A DNA stretch of 64,000 nt, taken from an uncultured delta proteobacterium (GTDB taxonomy: Bacteria > Desulfobacterota > Binatia > Binatales > Binataceae). Shown piece after piece: positions 6,901-53,699 of the stretch. The position numbers and the translations under genes are program-made. The stretch spans positions 520,958 to 584,957 of the forward strand of contig CAVQEQ010000003.1 of the NCBI GenBank assembly GCA_963711565.1, read 5' to 3'. Below the pieces are notes generated by a model that made no database searches, was not told the DNA's origin, and saw only the letters and a program-made list of their open reading frames with translations. Numbering within the stretch: the stretch's first letter is position 1; each line of letters opens with the position of its first letter.

Positions 6901-8607
6901 TTATCCCATCGGGCCCTGGTAGACCTCGGCGAAGCGCATGCCGAGTTCGCCGGGGATCGCGAGGTTGGCGTCGCGATTCGTTTTCAGGCAGATGACCGCG
7001 GGACCGTCGGCGGCCTGCGCATCCTTTAACGCCGCGTCGAGATCTTCGATCCTATCGACGTAGAACGATTTGCAGCCGAGGCCCTCGGCGACTTTGTCCC
7101 ATCGCACTGTGCCCATCTCGGTGCCGAAGGTCTTGCCCCAGAGGCGGCGTTCGTTCGGCTCTTCCATGGTCCATGAACCTTCGGCGAAGACGATGACCCT
7201 GACTTTCAGGCCTTCGCGCGCCGCCGTTTGCATCTCCATGAAGTTGAAGCCCGCGGCGCCGTCGCCGCTGACGCAAACGACTTCGCGCGAGGGGTTGCCG
7301 AGTTTCGCGCCGATCGACGAAGGGATTCCGGTGCCGAGCATCCCGAGCTCTAGGATGTTCAGGAACGACCGCGGCTTGGTCGATGGAAGAAACCAGAGCG
7401 ACCACAACGAGGTGTTGCCGCCGTCGGCGACGTAGATACTGTCGGGGCCGAACACCTTGCCGATTTTTTCGATCGCTTGCGCCGGATGGATTCCCGGTCC
7501 GCTCCACTTCGCGACCGAGGCGAAACGCTTCTCGCGCCATTCGTGAGCGGTCTGCCGATAGCGCGCCATATCTTCGCCGTTTTTGGGCTGGGCGCGTTTC
7601 GTCTTGAGCACACGCAGCAAGCCTTCGAGCGCGCTCTTCGCGTCGGCGACAATCGCGAGTGCGAGCGGGCGCGTGACGCCCATGTTGCGCTGATCAATGT
7701 CCACCTGGATGAGTTTCTGATTGGAGGGGTCGCCCCAGTACTTGTCGTAGGGAATGTCGAGGTTGCCCATCCGCGAGCCGGCGACGAGGATCACGTCGGA
7801 CTCGCGGCGCGCGAGGTCGGCGGCAATTCCGTAGCCGTAGAGAAAGTTCGGATGGTCCATCGGCACCGACGAGCGCGCGGCAATCGAACTGATGACCGGA
7901 CAGTTGAGCAGATCGACGACGGCTAGGAGCGCCTCGTTGGCGCCGGCGCGATCGACTCCGCCGCCCGAGATCACGAGAGGCCGCTTCGCCGCTATGAGCA
8001 TCGCGGCGGCCTCTTCGAGCTGCGCCTCCGACGCGCGCGGACCCGATGCGCGGTATTCATTCGGCTTGAGCACGCGGACTTTGGTGTCGTCGCCCGTCGC
8101 GTACATGATGGGCGCGGGAATCTCGATATGAATCGGGCCGGGCCTGCCGGTCCACATCTCGCGAAACGCAATGCGCATCACTTCGGGGATTCGATCCCAC
8201 GACAGAATCGGACCGCTCCATTTCACGACGGGCTTGAAGATTTCGAGCTGGTCCTGTCCCTGGAAGGTCGAGGGCGGCGACGGATAAACGATGCCGAGGC
8301 GATGCTGCGCGGTGATGACGACGACGGGCACGCCCTCGTGGCGCGCGGTGATCACGCCGGGCAGAAGATTCGCGGAGCCGGGGCCTGGATTGCCGAGCAC
8401 GGCGGCGACCTGGCCGGTCGTCTTGTACAGCCCCTCCGCCATGTGGACGGCGGCGGCCTCGTGACGGATGGGCACGAGTCGCACGTCGTACTCCGCGAGC
8501 TTGGCGAGCAGCGGATCGACCTCGGGACAAGGGAGGCCGAAGACGAACTTGACACCCTCGGCAACGAGACATCGCAGCAGCAGTTCGGCACCTGTGATTT
8601 CGCTCAT
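6901..8607 (-). CDS. Thiamine-pyrophosphate-dependent enzyme (acetolactate synthase large-subunit-like)
   Basis: N-terminal TPP Pyr domain (MSEITGAELLLRCLVAEGVKFVFGLP). Central and C-terminal TPP-binding domains follow (GDGAAGFNFMEMQTA). Start is the ATG at 8607 with a GGAGGA RBS. The longer ORF to 8754 lacks an RBS. Confidence 0.75.
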   Translation of the reverse strand: MSEITGAELLLRCLVAEGVKFVFGLPCPEVDPLLAKLAEYDVRLVPIRHEAAAVHMAEGLYKTTGQVAAVLGNPGPGSANLLPGVITARHEGVPVVVITAQHRLGIVYPSPPSTFQGQDQLEIFKPVVKWSGPILSWDRIPEVMRIAFREMWTGRPGPIHIEIPAPIMYATGDDTKVRVLKPNEYRASGPRASEAQLEEAAAMLIAAKRPLVISGGGVDRAGANEALLAVVDLLNCPVISSIAARSSVPMDHPNFLYGYGIAADLARRESDVILVAGSRMGNLDIPYDKYWGDPSNQKLIQVDIDQRNMGVTRPLALAIVADAKSALEGLLRVLKTKRAQPKNGEDMARYRQTAHEWREKRFASVAKWSGPGIHPAQAIEKIGKVFGPDSIYVADGGNTSLWSLWFLPSTKPRSFLNILELGMLGTGIPSSIGAKLGNPSREVVCVSGDGAAGFNFMEMQTAAREGLKVRVIVFAEGSWTMEEPNERRLWGKTFGTEMGTVRWDKVAEGLGCKSFYVDRIEDLDAALKDAQAADGPAVICLKTNRDANLAIPGELGMRFAEVYQGPMG

Positions 8608-31210: not shown

Positions 31211-31421
31211 GCAACTGAGCGAGCCGGTCGAGTCCTGAGCCGCCCTGCCGCTGCAGTCCGGGGGCTGAAAATAGCCCCCGACCGTCCTCATGTTATAATT
31301 TCTTACAATTTGATTCATTCGTGCGGTCATAGTAGACAGTAGTGTTCGTCGGCAAAGTTGCCGGCGGCGGCAAGCTCGATCCGCGTGGTCCAGCTATCCG
31401 CAAATGACGGAGGAAATTATA

Positions 31422-32732
31422 ATGGAAGCAGAAGTGCAACCGCTCGTGGCGCCTCGCCGGGGGATGGGGACGATGACCAGTATCGAGGAACAATATCGCG
31501 GCGTGACCGAAAAATCGGCGCAACTCGCCAAACGCGCCGAGCGCGTGATGCCCGGCGGTGACACGCGTACGACCACCAACTACAAGCCCTACCCGCTGAC
31601 GCTCGAGCGCGGCGAAGGTCCGTTTTTGTGGGACGTTGACGGCAACAGGTACATCGACCTCCTTGGCAACTACACCAGCCTGGTGCATGGCAACGCCTAT
31701 CCGCCGATCGTCGCGGCTGCGACCAAGGCGGTGCGTGACGGCAGCTCGTGGCCGGCGCGATCGGTGGCGCAGACCGAGCTGGCGGCGCTGTTGTGCGAGC
31801 GCGTCGAGTCGGTCGAGCGTGTGCGATTCTGTAATTCAGGGACAGAGGCCGGGATGCTCGCGGCGCAAGTCGCGCGGCGCCTCACCGGCCGCAAGCTCAT
31901 CTTGATGGCGCGCTACGGCTACCATGGATCGTACGACGACTTGGAAGTCGGGCTGGCCGGCCAGGACGGCGAGCGCACGATGCTCGCGGACTTCGGCGAG
32001 GCGACGGCGTTCGAGGCGTTGCTGTCGGAGCGCGGCGCGGAAATCGCGGCGGTGTTTCTGGAGCCGGTGCTCGGCTCGGCGGGAGTCGTGGAGCCGCCGG
32101 CGGGATTTCTCGAGCGCGTGGCTGAAGCGACGCGACGCGCGGGCGCGATGTTCGTTGTCGATGAAGTGATCACGCTGAGGCTGGCCGAAGGCGGCGGGCA
32201 GCAGATTTTCGAGGTCAAGCCGGACCTGACGATGTTCGGAAAGATCATCGGCGGCGGATTCCCGGTCGGCGCAATCGGCGGCAGCGAAGACGTGATGTCG
32301 GCATTCGATCCGCGCAATCGCGGATCGATTTTTCATTCGGGCACGTTCAACGGCAATCCTGTAACCTGCGCGGCGGGCGCCGTTTCGATCCGCGAGCTGA
32401 CGCAGGCGCGAATCGACAAGATGGCCAAGCAGGGTGAGCGGCTGGCGGCCGAGCTGGCGCGCGCGGCGCGGCAAGTGGATCTGCCGTTTTCCGTGCGGCA
32501 TTGCGGATCGCTGCTGAACGTATTTTTTCTCAAGGAGCCGCCGGCCCCGACGATCGCGCGCGAGGACGCCCGCGCAATCTCCAATTTCCATCTGGCAGCG
32601 CTCAATCAGGGTTTGTTTCTCGCGCCACGCGGGATGATCGCGCTCTCGACGGTGATCACCGACGAAGTGCTGAGCGAGATTTGCGAGCGCACCGCGAAAG
32701 CGATGGCCGACGTTGCGCAAGCCGGCGAATAG
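31422..32732 (+). CDS. Class-III (PLP-dependent) aminotransferase, glutamate-1-semialdehyde aminomutase-like
   Basis: PLP-lysine region DLTMFGKIIGGGFPVGAIGG. FDEVIT and GTFNGNP motifs. GGAGGA RBS 8 nt upstream of the ATG at 31422. Confidence 0.75.
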   Translation: MEAEVQPLVAPRRGMGTMTSIEEQYRGVTEKSAQLAKRAERVMPGGDTRTTTNYKPYPLTLERGEGPFLWDVDGNRYIDLLGNYTSLVHGNAYPPIVAAATKAVRDGSSWPARSVAQTELAALLCERVESVERVRFCNSGTEAGMLAAQVARRLTGRKLILMARYGYHGSYDDLEVGLAGQDGERTMLADFGEATAFEALLSERGAEIAAVFLEPVLGSAGVVEPPAGFLERVAEATRRAGAMFVVDEVITLRLAEGGGQQIFEVKPDLTMFGKIIGGGFPVGAIGGSEDVMSAFDPRNRGSIFHSGTFNGNPVTCAAGAVSIRELTQARIDKMAKQGERLAAELARAARQVDLPFSVRHCGSLLNVFFLKEPPAPTIAREDARAISNFHLAALNQGLFLAPRGMIALSTVITDEVLSEICERTAKAMADVAQAGE

Positions 32733-46738: not shown

Positions 46739-47421
46739 TCAAGACTTGCTGAGCAGATGACGGAAGAGGTCGGCCGCCGACTTGCCGGCCTCCTCAGCAA
46801 AGGGCTCGTTCAGGAACTCAACGTCGTTCATGCGGTCGACGCGGAAGAAACGGAAATCATCGCGCAGCTCACACCACGACGCGGCGGTCCAAAACGGTGG
46901 ATAGAACCAGAGGCTCAAGGGACGCACCTTGCGACGAGTCTCGGCGCCCTTCTCGTCGCAATATCGGAAGCGAACTTTTGTGCATCCGCGAATCGCGGCG
47001 CGCAAACGTCCAAGATCGAATGTCACCGGCACCCGGCGGACGTTTTCGGCGCCCACAGCGATCGATCGTCCAACATCCGCTGCAGGTGCGCCGGCAGAAC
47101 GTTCTCGATCTTCGACAACGCCGCGTCCGCCGCGCGCCCCAGCTCGGCATCGCTCCAGTTCTGCACCATGCGCGCGCCGAAGACGAGCGCCTCGAGCTCG
47201 CTCTCACTGAACATCAGCGGCGGCAGATCGTAACCCTTGCGCAACGAGTAGCCGATGCCGGCCGCGCCCTCGATAGGGACTTTGCTTGCGATCAGGTCGC
47301 GAATGTCGCGGTAGATTGTTCGCTCGCTGGTGTTGAACTGTTCGGCGAGCGAATGGGCGGTAACCACGCGGCGTCTGCGCAGCCGCTGAATGATCTCGAA
47401 CAGGCGATCCGCGCGACGCAT
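46739..47421 (-). pseudogene. YafY-type transcriptional regulator (HTH_11 plus WYL domain), reading frame broken near 47025-47100
   Basis: The N-terminal frame (47421-47023) encodes MRRADRLFEIIQRLRRRRVVTAHSLAEQFNTSERTIYRDIRDL, a YafY HTH. The C-terminal frame (47056-46739) encodes a WYL domain (FRYCDEKGAETRRKVRPLSLWFYPPFWTAASWC). The frames differ by 1 nt. Confidence 0.6.
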
Positions 47422-47482
47422 GATAATTGAGCTTCTCTCACTGTCGTCGTCGAACGGCAACACCCGCGGGTTTCACATTCGA

Positions 47483-49408
47483 TCAAGTTCCGCCGCTGCT
47501 AAGTTCCGCCGGAGTGCGCAGCAACCCATACGCGGTCACCGCGAAGAAGACGGCGAGGTTGATCGATGCCGCCCCGATCAGCGCGGCGTTCAGATGGTCG
47601 GGGAAATATGACGAGGTGTCGGTGAGATGCTTGATGTAGACGAGGTTGAACAGGAACGTCGCGCTGACCACGCCGAAAATCGAGGTGAGAAATTCGCTCT
47701 CCAGCGCGATCGGAATCAGGAAGACCAGCGGGTAGTAGAGATATCGCTCGTGCATCCGCGGCGCGAACATGAAGAAGCCGAACAGCGCGACGAAAATTGC
47801 GAGCAGCGCCGCACGAGCCGACCGCGCGCGCCAAATCATGTACGACGCGATCAGGTAAACGGCGCACGTCAGCGAAAGTCCGAACGCGCTGTACGAAACG
47901 CCGCCGAAGACTTTGTCGGTGTCGGGCGTGCCCATCCCGCCGATCAACCCCATGAAGTTGAACGCGCCGACCGACGCTTCGCTGAAGCGCGTCCCGAGGT
48001 CTTTGTATACGTTGATTATCCAGTCCCACGAATGCCCGAGTTGATACGGCAGGATTCCTATCGCAACCGTGCCCGCGACCGCACTAGCGCACCACACGCA
48101 TTCGACGATGCCCGCGTTGAAAAGCGTCCACAGCGCTAGCGGCGGCGTAAATGCGAGCGCTTGCGGCTTAGCCAGCATCGCGATCGCGGCCGCACTCCAG
48201 CCGAGGCGGTAGCGGCCGGTGAGGATCAGAATCGCTGCCGCGATCATCGGCAGCGCGACGACCGAATCGCTCTGGCCCCATACCACAGTGTCGAAGATGA
48301 GCGCCGGGTTGAGCGCGAACAGCATCATTATAATGAGGGCGCGCGGGCCGCGTCCGTCGCGCCACGTCGCGAAGTAAAGCGTTAGGCCGATGAAGAGATC
48401 GGCAATCAGCGGCGGCGTCTCGACGATCACGCGAAAGCCGTTCGCGGTCGGCTCGAGCAACCTGCCTATCCATCCCGAGAGCCACAGCAGGTACAGCGAC
48501 CCAGGCGGATAGGCGTCAACCGGCAGGCCGGGATCGTAAATCTTCGACGGCCCCAGCGCGGCGGCCAGGAGAGCGCGATTGGTCTTCGCCCAGATGTCCC
48601 AATAGAAGCCGGTAAAATGAAACAGTGCGGCGAACTTGATGGCCGTAATCGCCAGCATGAGGCCTGCCGCGAGCATCCACGCTCCCTGACCTGCCCAAAG
48701 AGCGGGCCGCGCTATCTCAAACAGCGCCCATCCCAGGATCGCGAGCAGGACAATCCCGCAGACGATGCCCGTCGCGCGGATCGAGATTGTAGCGTCGGGC
48801 TGATGCAGCTGATCCTTGTAGAGTGTGCGGATTGCAGCGAGATTAAATCTGACTACGCCCATCGGCGGCGGAGTCGAAACCTCGATCACCTTGATATTGC
48901 GAAATGAGGCGCGCCCCGTATCCGGATTTCCCGCAACGCCCAACTGGCAGAGCAATTCAGTCGTGTCGCCCCATCGATCTTCGATCAAGAAAAATGAAAC
49001 GGTTTGCCAGTCCTTGGTGCCTTGCAGATGATTCGAGATGAGCTGGATGCCGTCGAAGGTGCTGATCGCGATGTTCGCGCCGCCTTCATGCGGCATCGCA
49101 CCCTCGACGCGCGCTTCGGCGCTCACCTTGTAAATCCCCGGCCGCAGCATCAGTGCCTGATGCCAGCTCGAAAACGTCCGGCTGTTGTTCGCGATGCCAA
49201 GCACGCCGCCAGCGGCCGGCGTATAGGTCCATGAAAACTTTGTCAGCTTCTTGTCGGAAGACAACGCGTACCAATCGGCCGGCGCGCCGTCGAAGCCGGA
49301 CGCGAGGTCCGGGTTCTTGACGAGATTGGTCTGGGCGAAGGCGCAGAGCGGCCCCCAGAGCCATGATGCGCACAGTACCAGCGCCACAACCGCGATGAAT
49401 CGACGCAT
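47483..49408 (-). CDS. GT-C-fold integral membrane glycosyltransferase-like protein (DUF2029/PMT-like) with N-terminal periplasmic beta-rich domain
   Basis: Signal peptide followed by a ~200-aa soluble domain. Then 10 or more TM helices with conserved acidic-residue loops typical of lipid-linked sugar transferases. Confidence 0.5.
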   Translation of the reverse strand: MRRFIAVVALVLCASWLWGPLCAFAQTNLVKNPDLASGFDGAPADWYALSSDKKLTKFSWTYTPAAGGVLGIANNSRTFSSWHQALMLRPGIYKVSAEARVEGAMPHEGGANIAISTFDGIQLISNHLQGTKDWQTVSFFLIEDRWGDTTELLCQLGVAGNPDTGRASFRNIKVIEVSTPPPMGVVRFNLAAIRTLYKDQLHQPDATISIRATGIVCGIVLLAILGWALFEIARPALWAGQGAWMLAAGLMLAITAIKFAALFHFTGFYWDIWAKTNRALLAAALGPSKIYDPGLPVDAYPPGSLYLLWLSGWIGRLLEPTANGFRVIVETPPLIADLFIGLTLYFATWRDGRGPRALIIMMLFALNPALIFDTVVWGQSDSVVALPMIAAAILILTGRYRLGWSAAAIAMLAKPQALAFTPPLALWTLFNAGIVECVWCASAVAGTVAIGILPYQLGHSWDWIINVYKDLGTRFSEASVGAFNFMGLIGGMGTPDTDKVFGGVSYSAFGLSLTCAVYLIASYMIWRARSARAALLAIFVALFGFFMFAPRMHERYLYYPLVFLIPIALESEFLTSIFGVVSATFLFNLVYIKHLTDTSSYFPDHLNAALIGAASINLAVFFAVTAYGLLRTPAELSSGGT

Positions 49409-49556
49409 TAGTTAAACGGAATCCGATGCCGCGAGGGGTACCGATTCATGGGCATCCAAGCAAGTGTGGATATGCATATGCAAGACCTGCTGCGTTTTCG
49501 GCCAGCCCCGGCTAGGATGTGCCGCAGTTGGCTCGCAACCATGGGAGGGATTTGCG

Positions 49557-49958
49557 ATGGCTGAGAAATCGCGCGGCACCGCGCTCACGATCTTCGCGCT
49601 CCTGTTCGGACTTCTCGCGATCTCCAACTTCGCCAAACCGTTTCACATCTTCGCCGGAGACGGCTTCGTCTTCATGGGCGTCAAGCAGACCGGCACCCCC
49701 AATGCGATCCTCGGACCGCTGTTCGGGGTCCTCCTGTTGATTTACGCTTACGGCATCTGGACGATGCGCCGCTACGCGCTGCCGGTGGCGTACATCTATA
49801 CAGCATGGGTGATCGTCAACATGGTTCTGTTCACTTTGAAGAACCAGGCCGCTCAGCCGACTCCCCCGGTGTTTGCGATTATTTCTATCGTAATTGGCGT
49901 TGGCATCCCGCTCGCGACGGCGATCATTCTGTCGCGCCGCAGCGCTGAGCTCGGTTGA
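49557..49958 (+). CDS. Small 4-TM membrane protein, unknown function (paralog 1)
   Basis: MAEKSRGTALTIFALLFGLLAISNFAKPFHIFAGDGFVFMGVK... has four hydrophobic helices. It aligns residue by residue with the downstream ORF. Confidence 0.55.
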   Translation: MAEKSRGTALTIFALLFGLLAISNFAKPFHIFAGDGFVFMGVKQTGTPNAILGPLFGVLLLIYAYGIWTMRRYALPVAYIYTAWVIVNMVLFTLKNQAAQPTPPVFAIISIVIGVGIPLATAIILSRRSAELG

Positions 49959-49976
49959 TTGAGCGACGAATCCACG

Positions 49977-50387
49977 ATGAGAGCGAAACCGCGCGGCGCA
50001 ACTCTGACGATTCTCGCGCTACTGCTCGCGCTGATGGTGATTTCCGATTTCCACAAGCCGTTCGCGCATCATCCCGGCGAAGGCTTCGTGTTCTTTGGCA
50101 CGCGCCTTGCGGGCACCGCCAACACGATCGTCGCACCGATTTTCGGGATCATCCTCGCCGTGTACGTGTACGGAATTTTTGCGATGCGCAAGTTTGCGCT
50201 GCCGCTCGGAATTTTTTACGCGGCATACGTGATCCTCAATATGCCGCTGTTCATCCTAACGTACCACGGCACCCCGGTGATGCAGGAGCATTCGTGGGCG
50301 TACCTCGTCCCCTACCCCTTCGTCGCGATCGGCGTCTCGTCGGGCGCGGCCTGGCTGCTGTATCGACGCAAAGCCGACCTGCGCTGA
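49977..50387 (+). CDS. Small 4-TM membrane protein, unknown function (paralog 2, tandem duplicate)
   Basis: MRAKPRGATLTILALLLALMVISDFHKPFAHHPGEGFVFFGTR... has the same architecture as 49557-49958, with ~45% identity by eye. Confidence 0.55.
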   Translation: MRAKPRGATLTILALLLALMVISDFHKPFAHHPGEGFVFFGTRLAGTANTIVAPIFGIILAVYVYGIFAMRKFALPLGIFYAAYVILNMPLFILTYHGTPVMQEHSWAYLVPYPFVAIGVSSGAAWLLYRRKADLR

Positions 50388-50450
50388 AGCCTCTTCTATT
50401 GACAACCCATCGCTTGTCAAGTAATCCTTGACACGAGGTTCAAGTCGATC

Positions 50451-50798
50451 ATGGTCAATGGCAAGATGTTGTATTGCTCGTTCTGCCGAAAGAGCGACGA
50501 GCAACTCAAGAAACTCATCGCAGGGCCCGCCGTCTTTATCTGCGACGATTGCATCGAGCTCTGCAACCGCATCCTCGGTGGCAAACCGGTTCCCGCGTTT
50601 CCGGGATTTGACTCGCTCAAGACGGACGATCTCCTGAAGACCCTGGTACCAGCCGCCGAGCAGCTTCGCAAAACCGAAGATGTGCTTCGTCAGCACGTCT
50701 CCGCTCTTCGCAAGCGGGAGGTGACCTGGACGCGAATCGGCGAAGCCTTGGGTGTTAGCAGACAGGCGGCATGGGAGCGGTTCTCGCAAGAGGAATAG
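50451..50798 (+). CDS. ClpX-type C4 zinc-finger protein with C-terminal HTH
   Basis: [36 protein letters not shown] is a near-match to the ClpX N-terminal zinc-binding domain. The C-terminus [21 protein letters not shown] is HTH-like. No AAA+ module. Confidence 0.65.
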
Positions 50799-50905
50799 CG
50801 TCGTCGTCCCCGTGACTGCCCTTCGAGCATAGAGTCTGGCGAATCCTGGCGGTAGAATTGGCGTTGGCCGCGAACGCCTCGACCGCGGCTCCGCGAGGTG
50901 CGCAG

Positions 50906-52144
50906 ATGAAACGATCGCACACTGGATCGATCATGGGACGACGCGAGTTCCTGAAACGCGGTGTGCTGGCCGGCGTGGGCGTATCGATCCTGCCGCTGGC
51001 CGGCAGCGCGAGCGCATCGCTCGAAGCGGCGCCGCGCGTCCGCCGCTACTCGACGCTTGGCCGCACCGGTCTCAGGATTTCCGACATCTCGTTCGGCGCG
51101 AGCCGCCTGACTTCCGGGGAGGAAGACCTCGTGCGCCACGCCTACGATTGCGGGGTCAACTACTTCGACTCGGCCGATACTTACAGCGACGGCGAATCCG
51201 AGACCACGATCGGCAACGCGCTCAAGGGCAAGCGCGACAAGGTCTTCCTGACCTCGAAGACGATGGCGGGCGCGGACGACAGCCGCGCTTCGATAATGAC
51301 CGCGCTCGAAGGAAGCCTGCGCCGCCTGCAAACCGACCACGTTGACGTGTACTTCAACCATGCGGTCAACGATCCAGCGCGCCTGAAAAATCCCGAGTGG
51401 TACGAATTCGTCACGCAGGCGAAGCGCCAGGGAAAGATTCGCTTCACCGGGATGTCGGGACACGCCGGCAATCTTGCCGAATGCGTTGACTACGCGATCG
51501 ACAGCGGCCACTTCGACGTAATTCTGTGCGCGCACAACTTCGGCCAGGACCCGCGCTTTTACCAGCAATTCACGCGCAACTTCGATATGGTCGCGCGACA
51601 GCCCGAGTTGCCGCGCCTGATGGGGAAGGCAAATCAGCACGGCGTCGGCGTGGTCGTGATGAAAACCTTGATGGGCGCGCGCTTGAACGACATGCGTCCG
51701 TACGAATCGGGCGGTGCGACTTTTTCGCAGGCGGCGTTTCGATGGGTGCTGTCGAATCCGAACGTTAACGGGCTGATCGTCTCGATGACGAGCAGGCAAA
51801 TGATCGACGAATACCTGGGCGCGTCGGGAGCGCGCGCGACCGCCGCCGCGGATCTTCCGCTGTTGAATCGTTACGCGAGTCTCAACGGCGATTCGCAATG
51901 CCGTCCGGCGTGCAACGAGTGCGCGACCGCATGCCCCTACGGCGTGCCGATCGCCGATGTGATGCGCACGCGGATGTACGCTCGCGACTACGGCGACCTG
52001 CGCTTTGCGCGCAGCGAATACGCGATGCTCTCATCGAATGCCGCGGCCTGTCTCACTTGCGATACGAAGCCCTGCGCCGGCGCGTGTCCGCACGGCATCG
52101 CGACCGAGGTGCTGCTCGCGCCGACCCATCGGATGCTCGCGTAG
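50906..52144 (+). CDS. Tat-exported aldo/keto reductase with C-terminal Cys-rich (2x[4Fe-4S] ferredoxin-like) extension
   Basis: Twin-arginine signal MGRREFLKRGVLAGVGVSILPLAGSASA. AKR core (GVNYFDSADTY, catalytic K in LTSK). C-terminal CRPACNECATACP and CLTCDTKPCAGACP motifs. Confidence 0.65.
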   Translation: MKRSHTGSIMGRREFLKRGVLAGVGVSILPLAGSASASLEAAPRVRRYSTLGRTGLRISDISFGASRLTSGEEDLVRHAYDCGVNYFDSADTYSDGESETTIGNALKGKRDKVFLTSKTMAGADDSRASIMTALEGSLRRLQTDHVDVYFNHAVNDPARLKNPEWYEFVTQAKRQGKIRFTGMSGHAGNLAECVDYAIDSGHFDVILCAHNFGQDPRFYQQFTRNFDMVARQPELPRLMGKANQHGVGVVVMKTLMGARLNDMRPYESGGATFSQAAFRWVLSNPNVNGLIVSMTSRQMIDEYLGASGARATAAADLPLLNRYASLNGDSQCRPACNECATACPYGVPIADVMRTRMYARDYGDLRFARSEYAMLSSNAAACLTCDTKPCAGACPHGIATEVLLAPTHRMLA

Positions 52145-52148
52145 CCAA

Positions 52149-53699
52149 TTGTCGCCGGGACGAAACCTATCGAGGACGATTTATAGTTTCCTGCTCATTG
52201 CGATTTTCATCATCGCGACGGGCGGGCAGCGGAGTTTTGCCGAAATGGATGCACCTGAAATCGCACGCCCGGGACTTGAATGGTTCAACGTCGCCGCTCC
52301 GCTGCCAATCGCGAGCCTGCAGGGCCGCATTGTAATTCTCGATTTCTGGACCGAAGGATGCATCAACTGCATCCAGATTATCCCGACGCTGCGCCGCGTC
52401 GAAGATAAGTATCCCGACAAGGTGGTGGTGATCGGAGTTCACTCGCCAAAGTTCGCCAACGAGAAAAACGCGCACAGCGTCAAGGACGCGATCCGCCGCT
52501 ACGAGCTTCGGCATCCGATCATTCACGATCCCGATATGACTATCTGGCGCGCGTACGGGGTGCAGGCGTGGCCGACGCTCGTCGTGATCGGCGCCGACGG
52601 CAAAATCGCCGGCTCGATTCCCGGTGAGCCCGATCCGGATCGATTCGTCGCCGCCATCGACAAACTTGTCGCGGACTCGTCGAAAGACGGCACTCTGAGG
52701 CCGGCGGCGCTCGATCTCGCGCTTATCCCGGAACCCAAGGGACGTTTCCTGTTCCCGGGCAAGCTGAAACCTGTGCCGGGTCACGACAAGCGATGGGCAC
52801 TCGCCGACGGCGGACATAATCAGATCGTTCTGCTCGACGACAACGGCAAGGAACTCGAGCGCTATGGCAGCGGCGAGGCCGGGCTGCTCGATGGCGCAAA
52901 GCGCGCCGCGCACTTCGATCATCCGCAGGGCTTGATCGCCTCGAGCGACGCAATCTTCGTGGCTGACACCGAGAATCACGCGATTCGGCGTATCGACCTG
53001 GTAACCGGCGCGGTGACGACTCTCGCCGGAACGGGCAAGCGCGGGACGCAGCTCGGCGCTGCCGAACCCGGCCGCACGCGCGCGCTGGCCTCTCCGTGGG
53101 ACCTCGAGAAAAAAGGCGACGAGCTGTTCTTCGCGAACGCCGGCACTCATCAGATAGGCGTGCTCGATCTCAAGAGCGGAACCGTCGCGACGCTCGCGGG
53201 CACTGGCGAGGAAGGCTTGCGTGACGGGCGCGCCGCGTCGGCTTCGATGGCGCAACCGAGCGGGCTGGCGTTGAGCGCCGACGGTAAGACGCTCTACGTC
53301 GCGGACAGCGAAAGCTCGGCGGTGCGCGCGATCGCGCTGTCGAAGGATCCTCAGATCGTCACGCTGGTGGGAGCCGGACTCTTCGATTTCGGATGGGTCA
53401 ACGGTGATTTCCAAAAGGCGCGCTTGCAGCATCCGCTGGGAGTCGCCGTCGATGGCGACGATCTACTGGTTGCCGATACCTACAACAGTGCGATTCGCGA
53501 GCTGGAACTGGCAAAGCACGAGGTCGTAGACTTCGACGGTGGAAAATTTACCTGCGTCGATCCGGTTTGCATTCCCACGCGCGAGCCGGCGGGAATCGTG
53601 GCTGACACTCCAGATCGAATTCTGTTGGTCGATACAGGTAATCATCGAATCGATGAGTATCGGCCCTCGCTCAAGACTTACCACACCTGGTCGCGCTGA
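52149..53699 (+). CDS. Secreted thioredoxin-like (redoxin, CxxC) domain fused to NHL-repeat beta-propeller
   Basis: Putative TTG start 5 nt after the AKR stop gives signal peptide MSPGRNLSRTIYSFLLIAIFIIATGGQRSFA. Trx-like VILDFWTEGCINCIQ. Six NHL repeats (FDHPQGLIASSDAIFVADTENHAIRRIDL ...). Confidence 0.6.
   Translation: MSPGRNLSRTIYSFLLIAIFIIATGGQRSFAEMDAPEIARPGLEWFNVAAPLPIASLQGRIVILDFWTEGCINCIQIIPTLRRVEDKYPDKVVVIGVHSPKFANEKNAHSVKDAIRRYELRHPIIHDPDMTIWRAYGVQAWPTLVVIGADGKIAGSIPGEPDPDRFVAAIDKLVADSSKDGTLRPAALDLALIPEPKGRFLFPGKLKPVPGHDKRWALADGGHNQIVLLDDNGKELERYGSGEAGLLDGAKRAAHFDHPQGLIASSDAIFVADTENHAIRRIDLVTGAVTTLAGTGKRGTQLGAAEPGRTRALASPWDLEKKGDELFFANAGTHQIGVLDLKSGTVATLAGTGEEGLRDGRAASASMAQPSGLALSADGKTLYVADSESSAVRAIALSKDPQIVTLVGAGLFDFGWVNGDFQKARLQHPLGVAVDGDDLLVADTYNSAIRELELAKHEVVDFDGGKFTCVDPVCIPTREPAGIVADTPDRILLVDTGNHRIDEYRPSLKTYHTWSR

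What the first reader, a model, noticed from the sequence alone, without database searches (positions are those of the whole stretch)
49557..50798. Tandem duplicated 4-TM small membrane proteins followed by an orphan ClpX-type zinc-finger/HTH protein
- **Paralog pair.** Two adjacent paralogs of ~133 and ~136 aa share the same 4-helix architecture with no recognisable family. The stop-to-start spacing is 18 nt.
- **Downstream gene.** Sixty-three nt further on is a 115-aa protein. Its N-terminus is an unmistakable ClpX zinc-binding domain (LYCSFC...ICDDCIELC). It has no AAA+ module, and its C-terminus is HTH-like.
- **Hypothesis.** Orphan ClpX-ZnF proteins can act as adaptors or regulators. The trio could be an uncharacterised membrane-coupled regulatory module.
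Basis: partly seen in the sequence, partly recalled or inferred. Interest (0 to 1): 0.55.

Follow-up and report, generated by a model that had tools for sequence, protein, structure and literature searches.

The report
ClpX zinc-finger self-repressor beside unrelated membrane-protein pair
The three genes are real but are not one module: the small zinc-finger protein belongs to a widespread, unstudied family of self-repressing DNA-binding proteins that looks like a ClpX-directed counterpart of the mycobacterial antibiotic sensor ClpC2, and the two membrane proteins belong with a different neighbouring gene.

Summary
All three genes exist as described. TM_A (49557-49958) and TM_B (49977-50387) are 42% identical 4-helix paralogs. 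The 115-aa protein (50451-50798) has a genuine ClpX zinc-binding domain (ZBD; Pfam E=3e-17; 58% identical to the E. coli ZBD).

The trio is not a module. The membrane pair sits next to the zinc-finger gene only in the four closest genomes. Other Candidatus Binatus genomes keep the pair, divergent from a GT-C-like membrane protein, without the zinc-finger gene. The zinc-finger family (about 1,200 protein clusters, 406 species genomes, many phyla) has no conserved neighbour.

The zinc-finger gene does carry its own operator. The palindrome TGTCAAG-N5-CTTGACA occurs one to three times just upstream in essentially all 79 loci scored, about 600-fold enriched. Its C-terminal domain is homologous to the HTH domain of M. 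tuberculosis ClpC2 and RelI (hhalign 97%; RelI E=6e-10). ClpC2 is a published self-repressor and antibiotic sponge with operator CGTCAAC-N5-GTTGACG.

Best reading: a ClpC2-like autorepressor with a ClpX N-domain copy as its sensor. Autoregulation is well supported in silico; the sensor/decoy role is inferred. The membrane pair's function remains unknown.

The parts
49557..49958 (+). TM_A, a 133-aa small membrane protein with 4 helices
   Evidence: ORF and GGGAGG ribosome-binding site. 334 homologs, all named ones from Candidatus Binatus or similar MAGs, starting MAEKSRG. AF2 model.
49977..50387 (+). TM_B, a 136-aa paralog of TM_A
   Evidence: 42% identity, E=1e-29. The orthologous second copy is conserved in L001-L004, L081 and L084. 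Fused A-B proteins exist, for example P0245, 262 aa with two matched stretches.
50399..50404 (+). TTGACA: the surviving right half of an upstream operator copy, and a -35-like hexamer
   Evidence: It aligns with the right half of the first full palindrome in L005. The left half is replaced by the end of TM_B in the window and in L001-L004. Its role as a -35 element is inferred; the consensus promoter scan did not call a promoter here.
50415..50433 (.). Palindromic operator TGTCAAG-TAATC-CTTGACA, 17 nt before the start codon
   Evidence: It is the only exact GTCAAG-N5-CTTGAC site in the 64 kb. The same palindrome lies upstream of the homologous gene in essentially all 79 loci scored: 12.6 sites per kb against 0.02 per kb elsewhere.
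50451..50798 (+). ZBD-HTH protein, 115 aa
   Evidence: ORF. Full-length family of 1,234 protein clusters and 406 genome loci. AF2 model with pLDDT 88.8.
50472..50576 (+). ClpX-type C4 zinc-binding domain (residues 8-42)
   Evidence: PF06689 E=3.2e-17. PDB ClpX ZBD hits at E=1e-16. Foldseek match to 2ds5 at rmsd 1.1 A with 58% identity. C9, C12, C31, C34 and C38 are invariant or nearly so.
50613..50795 (+). ClpC2/RelI-type helical HTH domain (residues about 55-115; recognition helix SRQAAWERF)
   Evidence: RelI 9sdc E=5.6e-10 and ClpC2 8ada E=0.17. hhalign against ClpC2 N-terminal fragments gives 97.1%, E=7e-11. Model helices at 58-63, 65-88, 93-100 and 104-114.
47483..49408 (-). 641-aa polytopic membrane protein, GT-C-like, divergent from TM_A; the conserved neighbour of the TM pair
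   Evidence: Conserved next to the TM pair in L001-L004, L081 and L084. Sub-threshold GT87 (E=0.004, profile positions 3-236 of 237) and ALG6/ALG8 (E=0.03-0.14) hits in three orthologs.
49409..49556 (.). Divergent intergenic region between the GT-C-like gene and TM_A
   Evidence: 82% mean column identity across six genomes whose TM_A proteins are only about 68-72% identical. It contains no ZBD-HTH operator.
46739..47463 (-). HTH_11-WYL regulator gene, frameshifted in this window
   Evidence: The intact 227-aa ortholog (L081) aligns in two frames, switching at about 47044-47047. Pfam HTH_11 E=1.5e-13. It is conserved beside the GT-C-like gene.

Best explanation
The region holds two independent units.

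**Unit 1, gene 50451-50798.** This gene, with its upstream palindrome at 50415-50433, is a self-contained autoregulatory cassette.
- The protein joins a copy of the ClpX N-terminal zinc-binding domain to a ClpC2/RelI-type helical HTH domain.
- It binds as a dimer to the 19-bp palindrome TGTCAAG-N5-CTTGACA, which overlaps its own promoter, and so represses its own transcription.
- By analogy with mycobacterial ClpC2 (the same HTH class fused to a copy of the ClpC1 N-domain), the ZBD is proposed to be the sensor.
- Molecules that normally dock on the ClpX ZBD would bind it, release it from DNA and raise its level. Candidates are adaptor tails, certain degrons, or a ZBD-directed toxin.
- The protein could then also act as a buffer or decoy.

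What is shown and what is inferred:
- Shown in silico: the domain identities, the homology to ClpC2 and RelI, the family-wide operator, and the absence of a conserved partner gene.
- Inferred: repression, dimer binding, ligand-induced release and the decoy function.

**Unit 2, TM_A and TM_B.**
- They are a pair of N-in/C-in 4-helix membrane proteins that probably work as a heterodimer, because fused two-copy versions exist.
- In Candidatus Binatus they belong with the divergently transcribed GT-C-like membrane protein and a WYL regulator.
- A role as accessory or lipid-linked-sugar-handling subunits is a weak inference from context only.
For: **Domains**
- ZBD.
- HTH domain: RelI E=5.6e-10 and 1.7e-7; hhalign against the ClpC2 N-terminal domain gives 97.1%, E=7e-11.

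**Operator**
- There are 149 sites within 150 nt upstream in 79 loci, against 21 in about 1.06 Mb of flanks.
- Twelve of those 21 are the true upstream sites of L006-L011.
- Most loci have 2-3 copies, 18-41 nt apart.
- In 35 of 61 two-site loci, a -10-like hexamer lies 16-18 nt after the TTGAC of site 1, within or touching site 2.

**The same operator goes with the same HTH class when the partner domain differs**
- L106: a BrnT-like toxin plus RelI-like operon.
- L187: an HTH-DUF3887 protein.

**Published precedent (PMC10030653)**
- ClpC2 binds CGTCAAC-n5-GTTGACG.
- Often two copies overlap the -35 and -10 elements of its own promoter.
- Cyclomarin A releases it, and it acts as a sponge.
- PMC13284704 links RelI to ClpC2.

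**Independence from the TM pair**
- No conserved neighbour across 80 loci.
- No clpX nearby.
- TM pair context.
- Fused TM copies.
- GT-C-like hits.
Against: - There is no experimental datum for this family.
- The window has only one full operator plus a half-site. Its -10 is weak (TAATCC or AATCCT), and the consensus promoter scan found no promoter there.
- No terminator separates TM_B from the gene, so read-through co-transcription is not excluded.
- The direct sequence hit to ClpC2 is weak (E=0.17) because the crystallised fragment lacks the recognition helix.
- Taylor et al. assigned DNA contacts partly to the ClpC2 Clp_N domain, which is absent here. The release mechanism therefore cannot be copied literally.
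- The domain order is reversed relative to ClpC2.
- The ZBD could be only a dimerisation module.
- No regulon beyond the protein's own gene could be searched.
- For the TM pair, distant family members sit in unrelated contexts, and fold search gave nothing significant.
Confidence: 0.6

Rival explanations
1. One reading: the two 4-TM proteins and the ZBD-HTH protein form one membrane-coupled regulatory module (an operon of three).
For: The genes lie on the same strand with short gaps (18 and 63 nt), and no terminator is predicted between them. They are co-localised in the four nearest genomes.
Against: - Co-localisation disappears at 83% protein identity (L005) and in all 75 more distant loci.
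- The TM pair occurs without the gene in other Binatus genomes.
- The ZBD-HTH gene has its own family-wide operator in the gap.
- There is no operator at the TM_A promoter.
Confidence: 0.05
2. An ordinary autoregulated transcription factor. The zinc ribbon serves only as a dimerisation, zinc-sensing or redox-sensing module and has no functional link to ClpX or proteolysis.
For: The ClpX ZBD is a constitutive dimer in isolation, as shown by the PDB entries 1ovx and 2ds5 matched. Palindromic operators need a dimer. No clp gene lies near the gene in any locus.
Against: - The ZBD is 55-58% identical to the E. coli ClpX ZBD across phyla, well beyond the four cysteines. This suggests the ClpX-like surface is kept.
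- The HTH domain of ClpC2 already dimerises on its own.
- The only characterised relative pairs this HTH with an unfoldase N-domain copy used as a ligand sensor.
Confidence: 0.25
3. A ClpXP adaptor, anti-adaptor or inhibitor. It would act by heterodimerising with ClpX ZBDs, or by delivering or withholding substrates, with DNA binding secondary.
For: It has a near-canonical ZBD. It overlaps in part with the decoy idea.
Against: The HTH and the operator are the most conserved features of the family. No conserved substrate or partner gene was found.
Confidence: 0.1
4. A type II antitoxin like RelI (Rv2664).
For: The strongest solved-structure hit for the C-terminal domain is RelI. A RelI-like toxin-antitoxin operon (L106) has the same operator.
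Against: No BrnT/RelS-like gene or any other small conserved gene lies adjacent in the 80 loci or in the window. The protein carries a ZBD, which RelI does not.
Confidence: 0.03

Closest known systems
ClpC2 (Rv2667) of Mycobacterium tuberculosis and M. smegmatis (Taylor et al. 2023, PMC10030653)
   Same: - The HTH/dimerisation domain is homologous (hhalign 97%).
- The operator is almost identical: 7+5+7 bp with the core GTCAA-N7-TTGAC.
- It usually occurs in two copies over the protein's own promoter.
- The gene is monocistronic and self-regulated.
- The architecture is 'HTH plus a copy of a Clp unfoldase substrate-receptor N-domain'.
   Different: - The sensor domain is the ClpX zinc-binding domain, not the ClpC1 Clp_N domain.
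- The domain order is reversed: sensor at the N-terminus, HTH at the C-terminus.
- The innermost operator base is G/C swapped.
- It is found in Binatota, Alpha- and Gammaproteobacteria, Myxococcota, Acidobacteriota, Eremiobacterota and Acidimicrobiia, rather than in the mycobacteria and streptomycetes where ClpC2 has been described.
- No ligand is known.
RelI (Rv2664), antitoxin of the RelS-RelI system (PMC13284704; PDB 9sdc)
   Same: The C-terminal helical HTH domain matches (E=5.6e-10 by profile, 1.7e-7 by single sequence).
   Different: RelI has no zinc finger and pairs with a BrnT-like toxin. No toxin gene lies next to the ZBD-HTH genes.
ClpX N-terminal zinc-binding domain (PF06689; PDB 1ovx, 2ds5-2ds8)
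   Same: C4 zinc ribbon, 55-58% identical, rmsd about 1 A in the model.
   Different: There is no AAA+ unfoldase module, so it is not a ClpX.
DUF2127 (PF09900), for the TM pair
   Same: Small predicted 4-TM proteins. Six of 30 distant TM-family members hit it weakly, best E=1.7e-4.
   Different: The window proteins do not hit it. DUF2127 has no known function.
ArnE/ArnF or GtrA-type small subunits that accompany GT-C glycosyltransferases (recalled from memory; a lead only)
   Same: They are small 4-TM proteins, paired in the case of ArnE/ArnF, and encoded beside a GT-C enzyme.
   Different: No sequence or fold similarity was detected. Foldseek hits to SMR proteins have E of about 1.

Membership tests
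zf-C4_ClpX (PF06689) | Score above the Pfam gathering threshold, with four zinc-ligand cysteines (CxxC...CxxC) | tested here: met
   62.6 bits against a cut-off of 27. C9/C12/C31/C34 are conserved. The model superposes on 2ds5 at 1.1 A.
ClpX unfoldase | AAA+ ATPase module with ClpP-docking loops | tested here: not met
   The protein is 115 aa. The NCBIfam ClpX equivalog models score 44 bits against cut-offs of 359-371, covering the N-terminal residues only.
ClpC2/RelI-type HTH domain | Sequence or profile homology of the helical HTH domain | tested here: met
   RelI E=5.6e-10. hhalign against the ClpC2 N-terminal domain gives 97.1%, E=7e-11.
ClpC2-like autorepressor | Palindromic GTCAA-N7-TTGAC operator(s) in the protein's own promoter region | tested here: met
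   Window site 50415-50433. Family-wide enrichment of about 600-fold. Published ClpC2 operator.
ClpC2-like autorepressor | Two operator copies overlapping the -35 and -10 elements | tested here: inconclusive
   Sixty-one of 79 loci have at least 2 sites. In 35 of those 61, a -10-like hexamer is correctly spaced. The window has one full site plus a half-site, and no promoter was called by the consensus scan.
ClpC2-like autorepressor | Direct DNA binding and self-repression (EMSA, reporter) | not testable with these tools
   Requires experiment.
ClpC2-like autorepressor | Ligand binding to the unfoldase-N-domain copy releases DNA; sponge function | not testable with these tools
   No ligand is known. 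This rests on inference by analogy only.
ClpC2 proper | Clp_N (ClpC1 N-terminal-like) domain | tested here: not met
   No Clp_N hit; the partner domain is zf-C4_ClpX.
RelS-RelI type II toxin-antitoxin | Adjacent BrnT/RelS-like toxin gene | tested here: not met
   No conserved neighbour in 80 loci, and none in the window.
   Seen in only 4 of 80 loci, all of them near-identical relatives. The TM pair occurs without the gene in L081-L084.
DUF2127 / DoxX / SMR (for the TM pair) | Pfam hit above threshold, or a significant fold match | tested here: not met
   - No hit for the window proteins.
- DUF2127 appears only at sub-threshold level in 6 of 30 distant relatives.
- No DoxX hit.
- Foldseek against the PDB gave a best E of 0.31.
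GT-C glycosyltransferase (neighbouring 641-aa protein) | Pfam GT-C family hit above threshold | tested here: inconclusive
   GT87 E=0.004 (17 bits against 25) covering nearly the whole profile, and ALG6/ALG8 E=0.03-0.14, in three orthologs.

The most novel reading that the evidence does not exclude
The ZBD-HTH family is the ClpX-directed counterpart of ClpC2: a self-amplifying sensor and sponge.
- It would detect molecules that dock on the ClpX zinc-binding domain, such as natural antibiotics, phage or competitor proteins, or an overload of ZBD-dependent substrates or adaptors.
- It would then protect or tune ClpXP.
- This implies that 'a copy of an unfoldase N-domain fused to a GTCAA-N7-TTGAC-reading HTH' is a general bacterial design, spread well beyond Actinobacteria.
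- It also implies that ZBD-targeting natural ligands exist and could be fished out with this protein or its promoter as a reporter.
- A corollary is that the shared HTH, rather than the Clp_N domain, is the DNA-reading head in ClpC2 itself.
Probability: 0.35. Interest if true: 0.8.

Novelty: new variant of a known kind. Interest (0 to 1): 0.62.

Why it matters
**A possible general design.**
- ClpC2 showed that bacteria can guard an essential AAA+ protease with an autoregulated copy of its substrate-receptor domain.
- So far this was described only for ClpC1 in actinobacteria.
- A family with the same HTH and the same operator, but carrying the ClpX receptor domain, suggests the strategy is general. 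The family is present in at least 406 species genomes across many phyla.

**A direct experimental handle.** The family's promoter could serve as a reporter, and the protein as bait, to discover what binds the ClpX zinc-binding domain in nature.

**A question about the ClpC2 model.** The shared operator across four different partner domains (ZBD, Clp_N, DUF3887, RelS-binding) argues that the HTH is the DNA-reading element. The published ClpC2 work placed DNA contacts on the Clp_N domain.

**For annotation.**
- 'ClpX C4-type zinc finger protein' or 'hypothetical' could be replaced with 'ClpC2-type HTH autoregulator with ClpX ZBD'.
- The TM pair should not be linked to it.

Tried and rejected
- **Trio as a module.** Rejected by neighbourhood analysis.
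- **Regulon search in the window.**
  - The only other near-match (32214-32230) lies inside an aminotransferase coding sequence and lacks the flanking T/A. It was judged to be chance.
  - No site lies at the TM_A or AKR promoters.
- **Metagenome scan for the exact 19-bp palindrome.**
  - 115 of 120 loci have no gene of this HTH class and look like chance TTGACA-based palindromes, so no regulon could be derived.
  - The five positives were still informative.
- **Search with the ClpC2 44-aa fragment.** It returned only truncated proteins. No full-length ClpC2 was obtained, and the fragments were used for hhalign instead.
- **Antitoxin reading.** Rejected because no toxin neighbour exists.
- **Glutamine-II riboswitch hit upstream of TM_A.** It scored 16.2 bits against a gathering threshold of 33 (E=0.055-0.075). 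Its matching single-stranded motif is not conserved in relatives and it was not found in their loci. It was judged to be chance.
- **clpX linkage.** No clpX is present in the window or in any fetched locus.
- **Literature searches for a described ZBD-HTH family.** They found nothing.
- **ZBD residues that bind the SspB tail.** These could not be retrieved, so conservation of the ligand site was not tested.
Full report
**1.

- TM_A: 49557-49958, 133 aa.
- TM_B: 49977-50387, 136 aa, 18 nt after TM_A.
- A 115-aa ORF: 50451-50798, 63 nt after TM_B.

TM_A and TM_B are clear paralogs, 42% identical with E=1e-29. The AF2 model of TM_A shows four long helices (7-29, 46-68, 74-95, 104-127) and a small hairpin at 38-43. 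It has pLDDT 84 for the best of five models; the other four scored 49-70. Lys/Arg clusters at the N-terminus, in the 2-3 loop and at the C-terminus suggest an N-in/C-in topology for both proteins; this is an inference.

Neither TM protein hits Pfam or NCBIfam.

The 115-aa protein has a bona fide ClpX zinc-binding domain (ZBD):
- PF06689 matches with E=3.2e-17.
- PDB ClpX ZBD sequences match with E=1e-16.
- The AF2 model has pLDDT 88.8.
- That model superposes on the E. coli ZBD 2ds5 at 1.1 A with 58% identity.

It has no AAA+ module. Names attached to homologs place the window in Candidatus Binatus, phylum Binatota.

**2. The three genes are not one module**

The ZBD-HTH protein belongs to a tight full-length family of about 113-120 aa. 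The protein search found 1,234 clusters. The species-genome collection gave 406 confirmed loci. These loci span Binatia, Alpha- and Gammaproteobacteria, Myxococcota, Acidobacteriota, Eremiobacterota and Acidimicrobiia.

In the 80 best loci, with 8 kb of flank on each side:
- The TM pair lies next to the gene only in L001-L004. These are the nearest relatives (87-91% identical), and in them the whole region is syntenic.
- L005, at 83% identity, already lacks the pair.
- All-against-all clustering of flanking ORFs found no gene family conserved beside the gene beyond within-clade synteny.
- Neighbours that were checked are unrelated to each other: a hybrid histidine kinase, an acyl-CoA synthetase, a GFA protein and a ketol-acid reductoisomerase.

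The reverse test gives the same answer. In other Binatus genomes TM_A and TM_B stay in tandem, divergent from a 580-666-aa membrane protein. An HTH_11-WYL regulator and a cupin gene lie beyond that protein. In those genomes TM_B is followed directly by the aldo-keto reductase (L081-L083) or by an erythromycin-esterase-like gene (L084). There is no zinc-finger gene.

**3. What the ZBD-HTH gene carries with it**

Reading the 120 nt upstream of the gene in every locus showed a striking palindrome, TGTCAAG-N5-CTTGACA.

The numbers come from one search, which allowed one mismatch to GTCARG-N5-CYTGAC:
- 149 sites fall in the 150 nt upstream of the 79 genes scored, or 12.6 per kb.
- 21 sites fall in the remaining 1.06 Mb or so, or 0.02 per kb.
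- Twelve of those 21 are the true upstream sites of L006-L011, where my start-codon choice was wrong.
- Most loci have two or three copies, 18-41 nt apart.
- The right half-site contains TTGACA.
- In 35 of 61 two-site loci, a -10-like hexamer (A at position 2, T at position 6) lies 16-18 nt after the TTGAC of site 1. It falls inside or against site 2.

In the window:
- One perfect site lies at 50415-50433, 17 nt before the ATG.
- It is the only exact match in the 64 kb.
- Upstream, only the right half (TTGACA, 50399-50404) of a second copy survives. Its left half is overwritten by the end of TM_B. L005 still has both full copies.
- This fits a secondary juxtaposition of the gene with the TM pair.

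**4. Homology of the C-terminal domain**

A profile of the family hits two solved structures apart from ClpX:
- RelI (9sdc, Rv2664): E=5.6e-10 by profile, 1.7e-7 by single sequence.
- The N-terminal fragment of Rv2667, which is ClpC2 (8ada): E=0.17.

Fragments of ClpC2 recovered from the protein collection continue ...SWSDIGKSMGVTKQAA past residue 72, where the crystallised piece ends. A profile-profile comparison of the family with these ClpC2 fragments gives 97.1% probability and E=7e-11. It aligns [26 protein letters not shown] with ARRSGASWSDIGKSMGVTKQAA. The RelI paper independently links RelI to the ClpC2 HTH region by HHpred at 99% (PMC13284704).

**5. The published precedent**

Taylor et al. 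2023 (PMC10030653) showed the following for ClpC2:
- It has an N-terminal dimerising helical domain plus a copy of the ClpC1 N-domain.
- It represses its own promoter.
- It binds a pseudopalindrome, CGTCAAC-n5-GTTGACG. The site is often present twice and overlaps the -35 and -10 elements.
- It is released by cyclomarin A and is then strongly induced; clpC2 mRNA rose 263-fold.
- It acts as a sponge that protects ClpC1.

The operator found here has the same 7+5+7 geometry and the same GTCAA-N7-TTGAC core. Only the innermost base is swapped.

A limited metagenome scan for the exact palindrome returned mostly chance hits. Five of its 120 loci, however, had a gene of this HTH class right at the site:
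- Three ZBD-HTH genes.
- One operon of a BrnT-like toxin plus a RelI-like protein (L106), with a TTGACA half-site followed by a full palindrome, as in the window.
- One HTH-DUF3887 protein (L187).

The same HTH class therefore travels with the same operator whatever its partner domain is. This argues that the HTH reads the DNA. It also argues that self-regulation is the family's common theme.

**6. Proposed mechanism**

Shown in silico:
- The domain identities.
- The homology to ClpC2 and RelI.
- An operator conserved across the whole family at the protein's own promoter.
- A monocistronic arrangement with no conserved partner gene and no linked clpX.

Inferred:
- The protein binds the palindrome as a dimer and represses itself.
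- The ZBD, which is a copy of the ClpX docking platform for adaptors and some substrates, is the input domain.
- Ligand binding relieves repression, so the protein accumulates and can buffer those ligands, as ClpC2 does for cyclomarin A.

My confidence in autoregulatory DNA binding is about 0.85. My confidence in the ClpC2-like sensor/decoy logic is about 0.4.

Caveats:
- The window's -10 is weak, and the consensus scan called no promoter.
- No terminator separates the gene from TM_B.
- The domain order is reversed relative to ClpC2.
- Taylor et al. implicated Clp_N arginines in DNA binding. That cannot apply here.

**7. The TM pair**

- The family is small: 262 representatives among 1.84 billion proteins.
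- It includes fused two-copy proteins such as P0245. This supports a heterodimeric or pseudo-dimeric working unit.
- Distant members give only sub-threshold DUF2127 hits.
- Foldseek against the PDB found nothing significant.
- Distant members sit in other contexts.
- Within Binatus, the constant partner is the divergently transcribed large membrane protein. Its membrane domain gives consistent but sub-threshold hits to GT-C families: GT87 at E=0.004 over nearly the whole profile, and ALG6/ALG8.
- The intergenic region between the two genes is unusually conserved, at 82% identity.

A role as accessory or lipid-linked-sugar-handling subunits of that enzyme is a context-based guess with a probability of about 0.25. 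The function is otherwise unknown.

**8. Novelty**

I found no paper describing a ClpX-ZBD/HTH family. Databases call it 'ClpX C4-type zinc finger protein' or 'hypothetical'. It is best classed as a new variant of a known kind: a ClpC2-type autorepressor with the sensor domain swapped for the ClpX ZBD. The TM pair is an uncharacterised, lineage-restricted family and is otherwise unremarkable.

Noticed in passing
window 46739-47463 (-): The HTH_11-WYL regulator conserved beside the GT-C-like gene is split by a frameshift near 47044-47047. The intact ortholog is 227 aa. This is either a pseudogene or an assembly error.
   Followed up: yes
window 49409-49556: The divergent intergenic region between the GT-C-like gene and TM_A is more conserved (82% identity across six genomes) than the flanking proteins. 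It is likely a dense regulatory region. A weak Glutamine-II riboswitch hit at 49496-49557 (16.2 bits against a gathering threshold of 33) is probably chance.
   Followed up: partly
L106 4220-4800 (-): A metagenomic operon of a BrnT-like toxin plus a RelI-like HTH carries CTTGACA-N8-TTGTCAAGGCAGCCTTGACA at its start. The M. tuberculosis RelSI paper reported no inverted repeat upstream and doubted DNA binding. Some RelI relatives may therefore be autoregulated through this operator.
   Followed up: partly
L187 2433-3099 (-): A 217-aa protein with the same HTH at its N-terminus and DUF3887 at its C-terminus has a perfect TGTCAAG-N5-CTTGACA site at its start codon. This is another sensor-domain swap on the same DNA-binding chassis.
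   Followed up: partly
L006-L011 (Binatia), match 8001-8490: In these Binatia genomes the homologous gene spans about 490 nt for query residues 6-112. This implies an insertion of roughly 50 aa between the ZBD and the HTH. Two operators lie upstream of the true start.
   Followed up: no
window 32214-32230: A GTCAAGCCGGACCTGAC match to the operator pattern lies inside a class-III aminotransferase-like ORF (31404-32732). It is probably chance.
   Followed up: partly
window 50858-52144 (+): The downstream aldo-keto reductase has a twin-arginine-like signal (RREFLK) and a C-terminal 4Fe-4S dicluster-like cysteine region, an unusual combination. It is followed by a thioredoxin-fold/NHL-repeat protein (52005-53699).
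   Followed up: no
P0245 / L085 539-1327: A 262-aa protein is a head-to-tail fusion of two TM-family copies. This suggests the tandem pair acts as one unit.
   Followed up: partly
PDB 8ADA versus P0391 and related fragments: The crystallised ClpC2 N-terminal fragment (residues 4-72) ends just before the predicted recognition helix (TKQAA...). The published 'dimerisation domain' therefore probably lacks its DNA-reading helix.
   Followed up: partly
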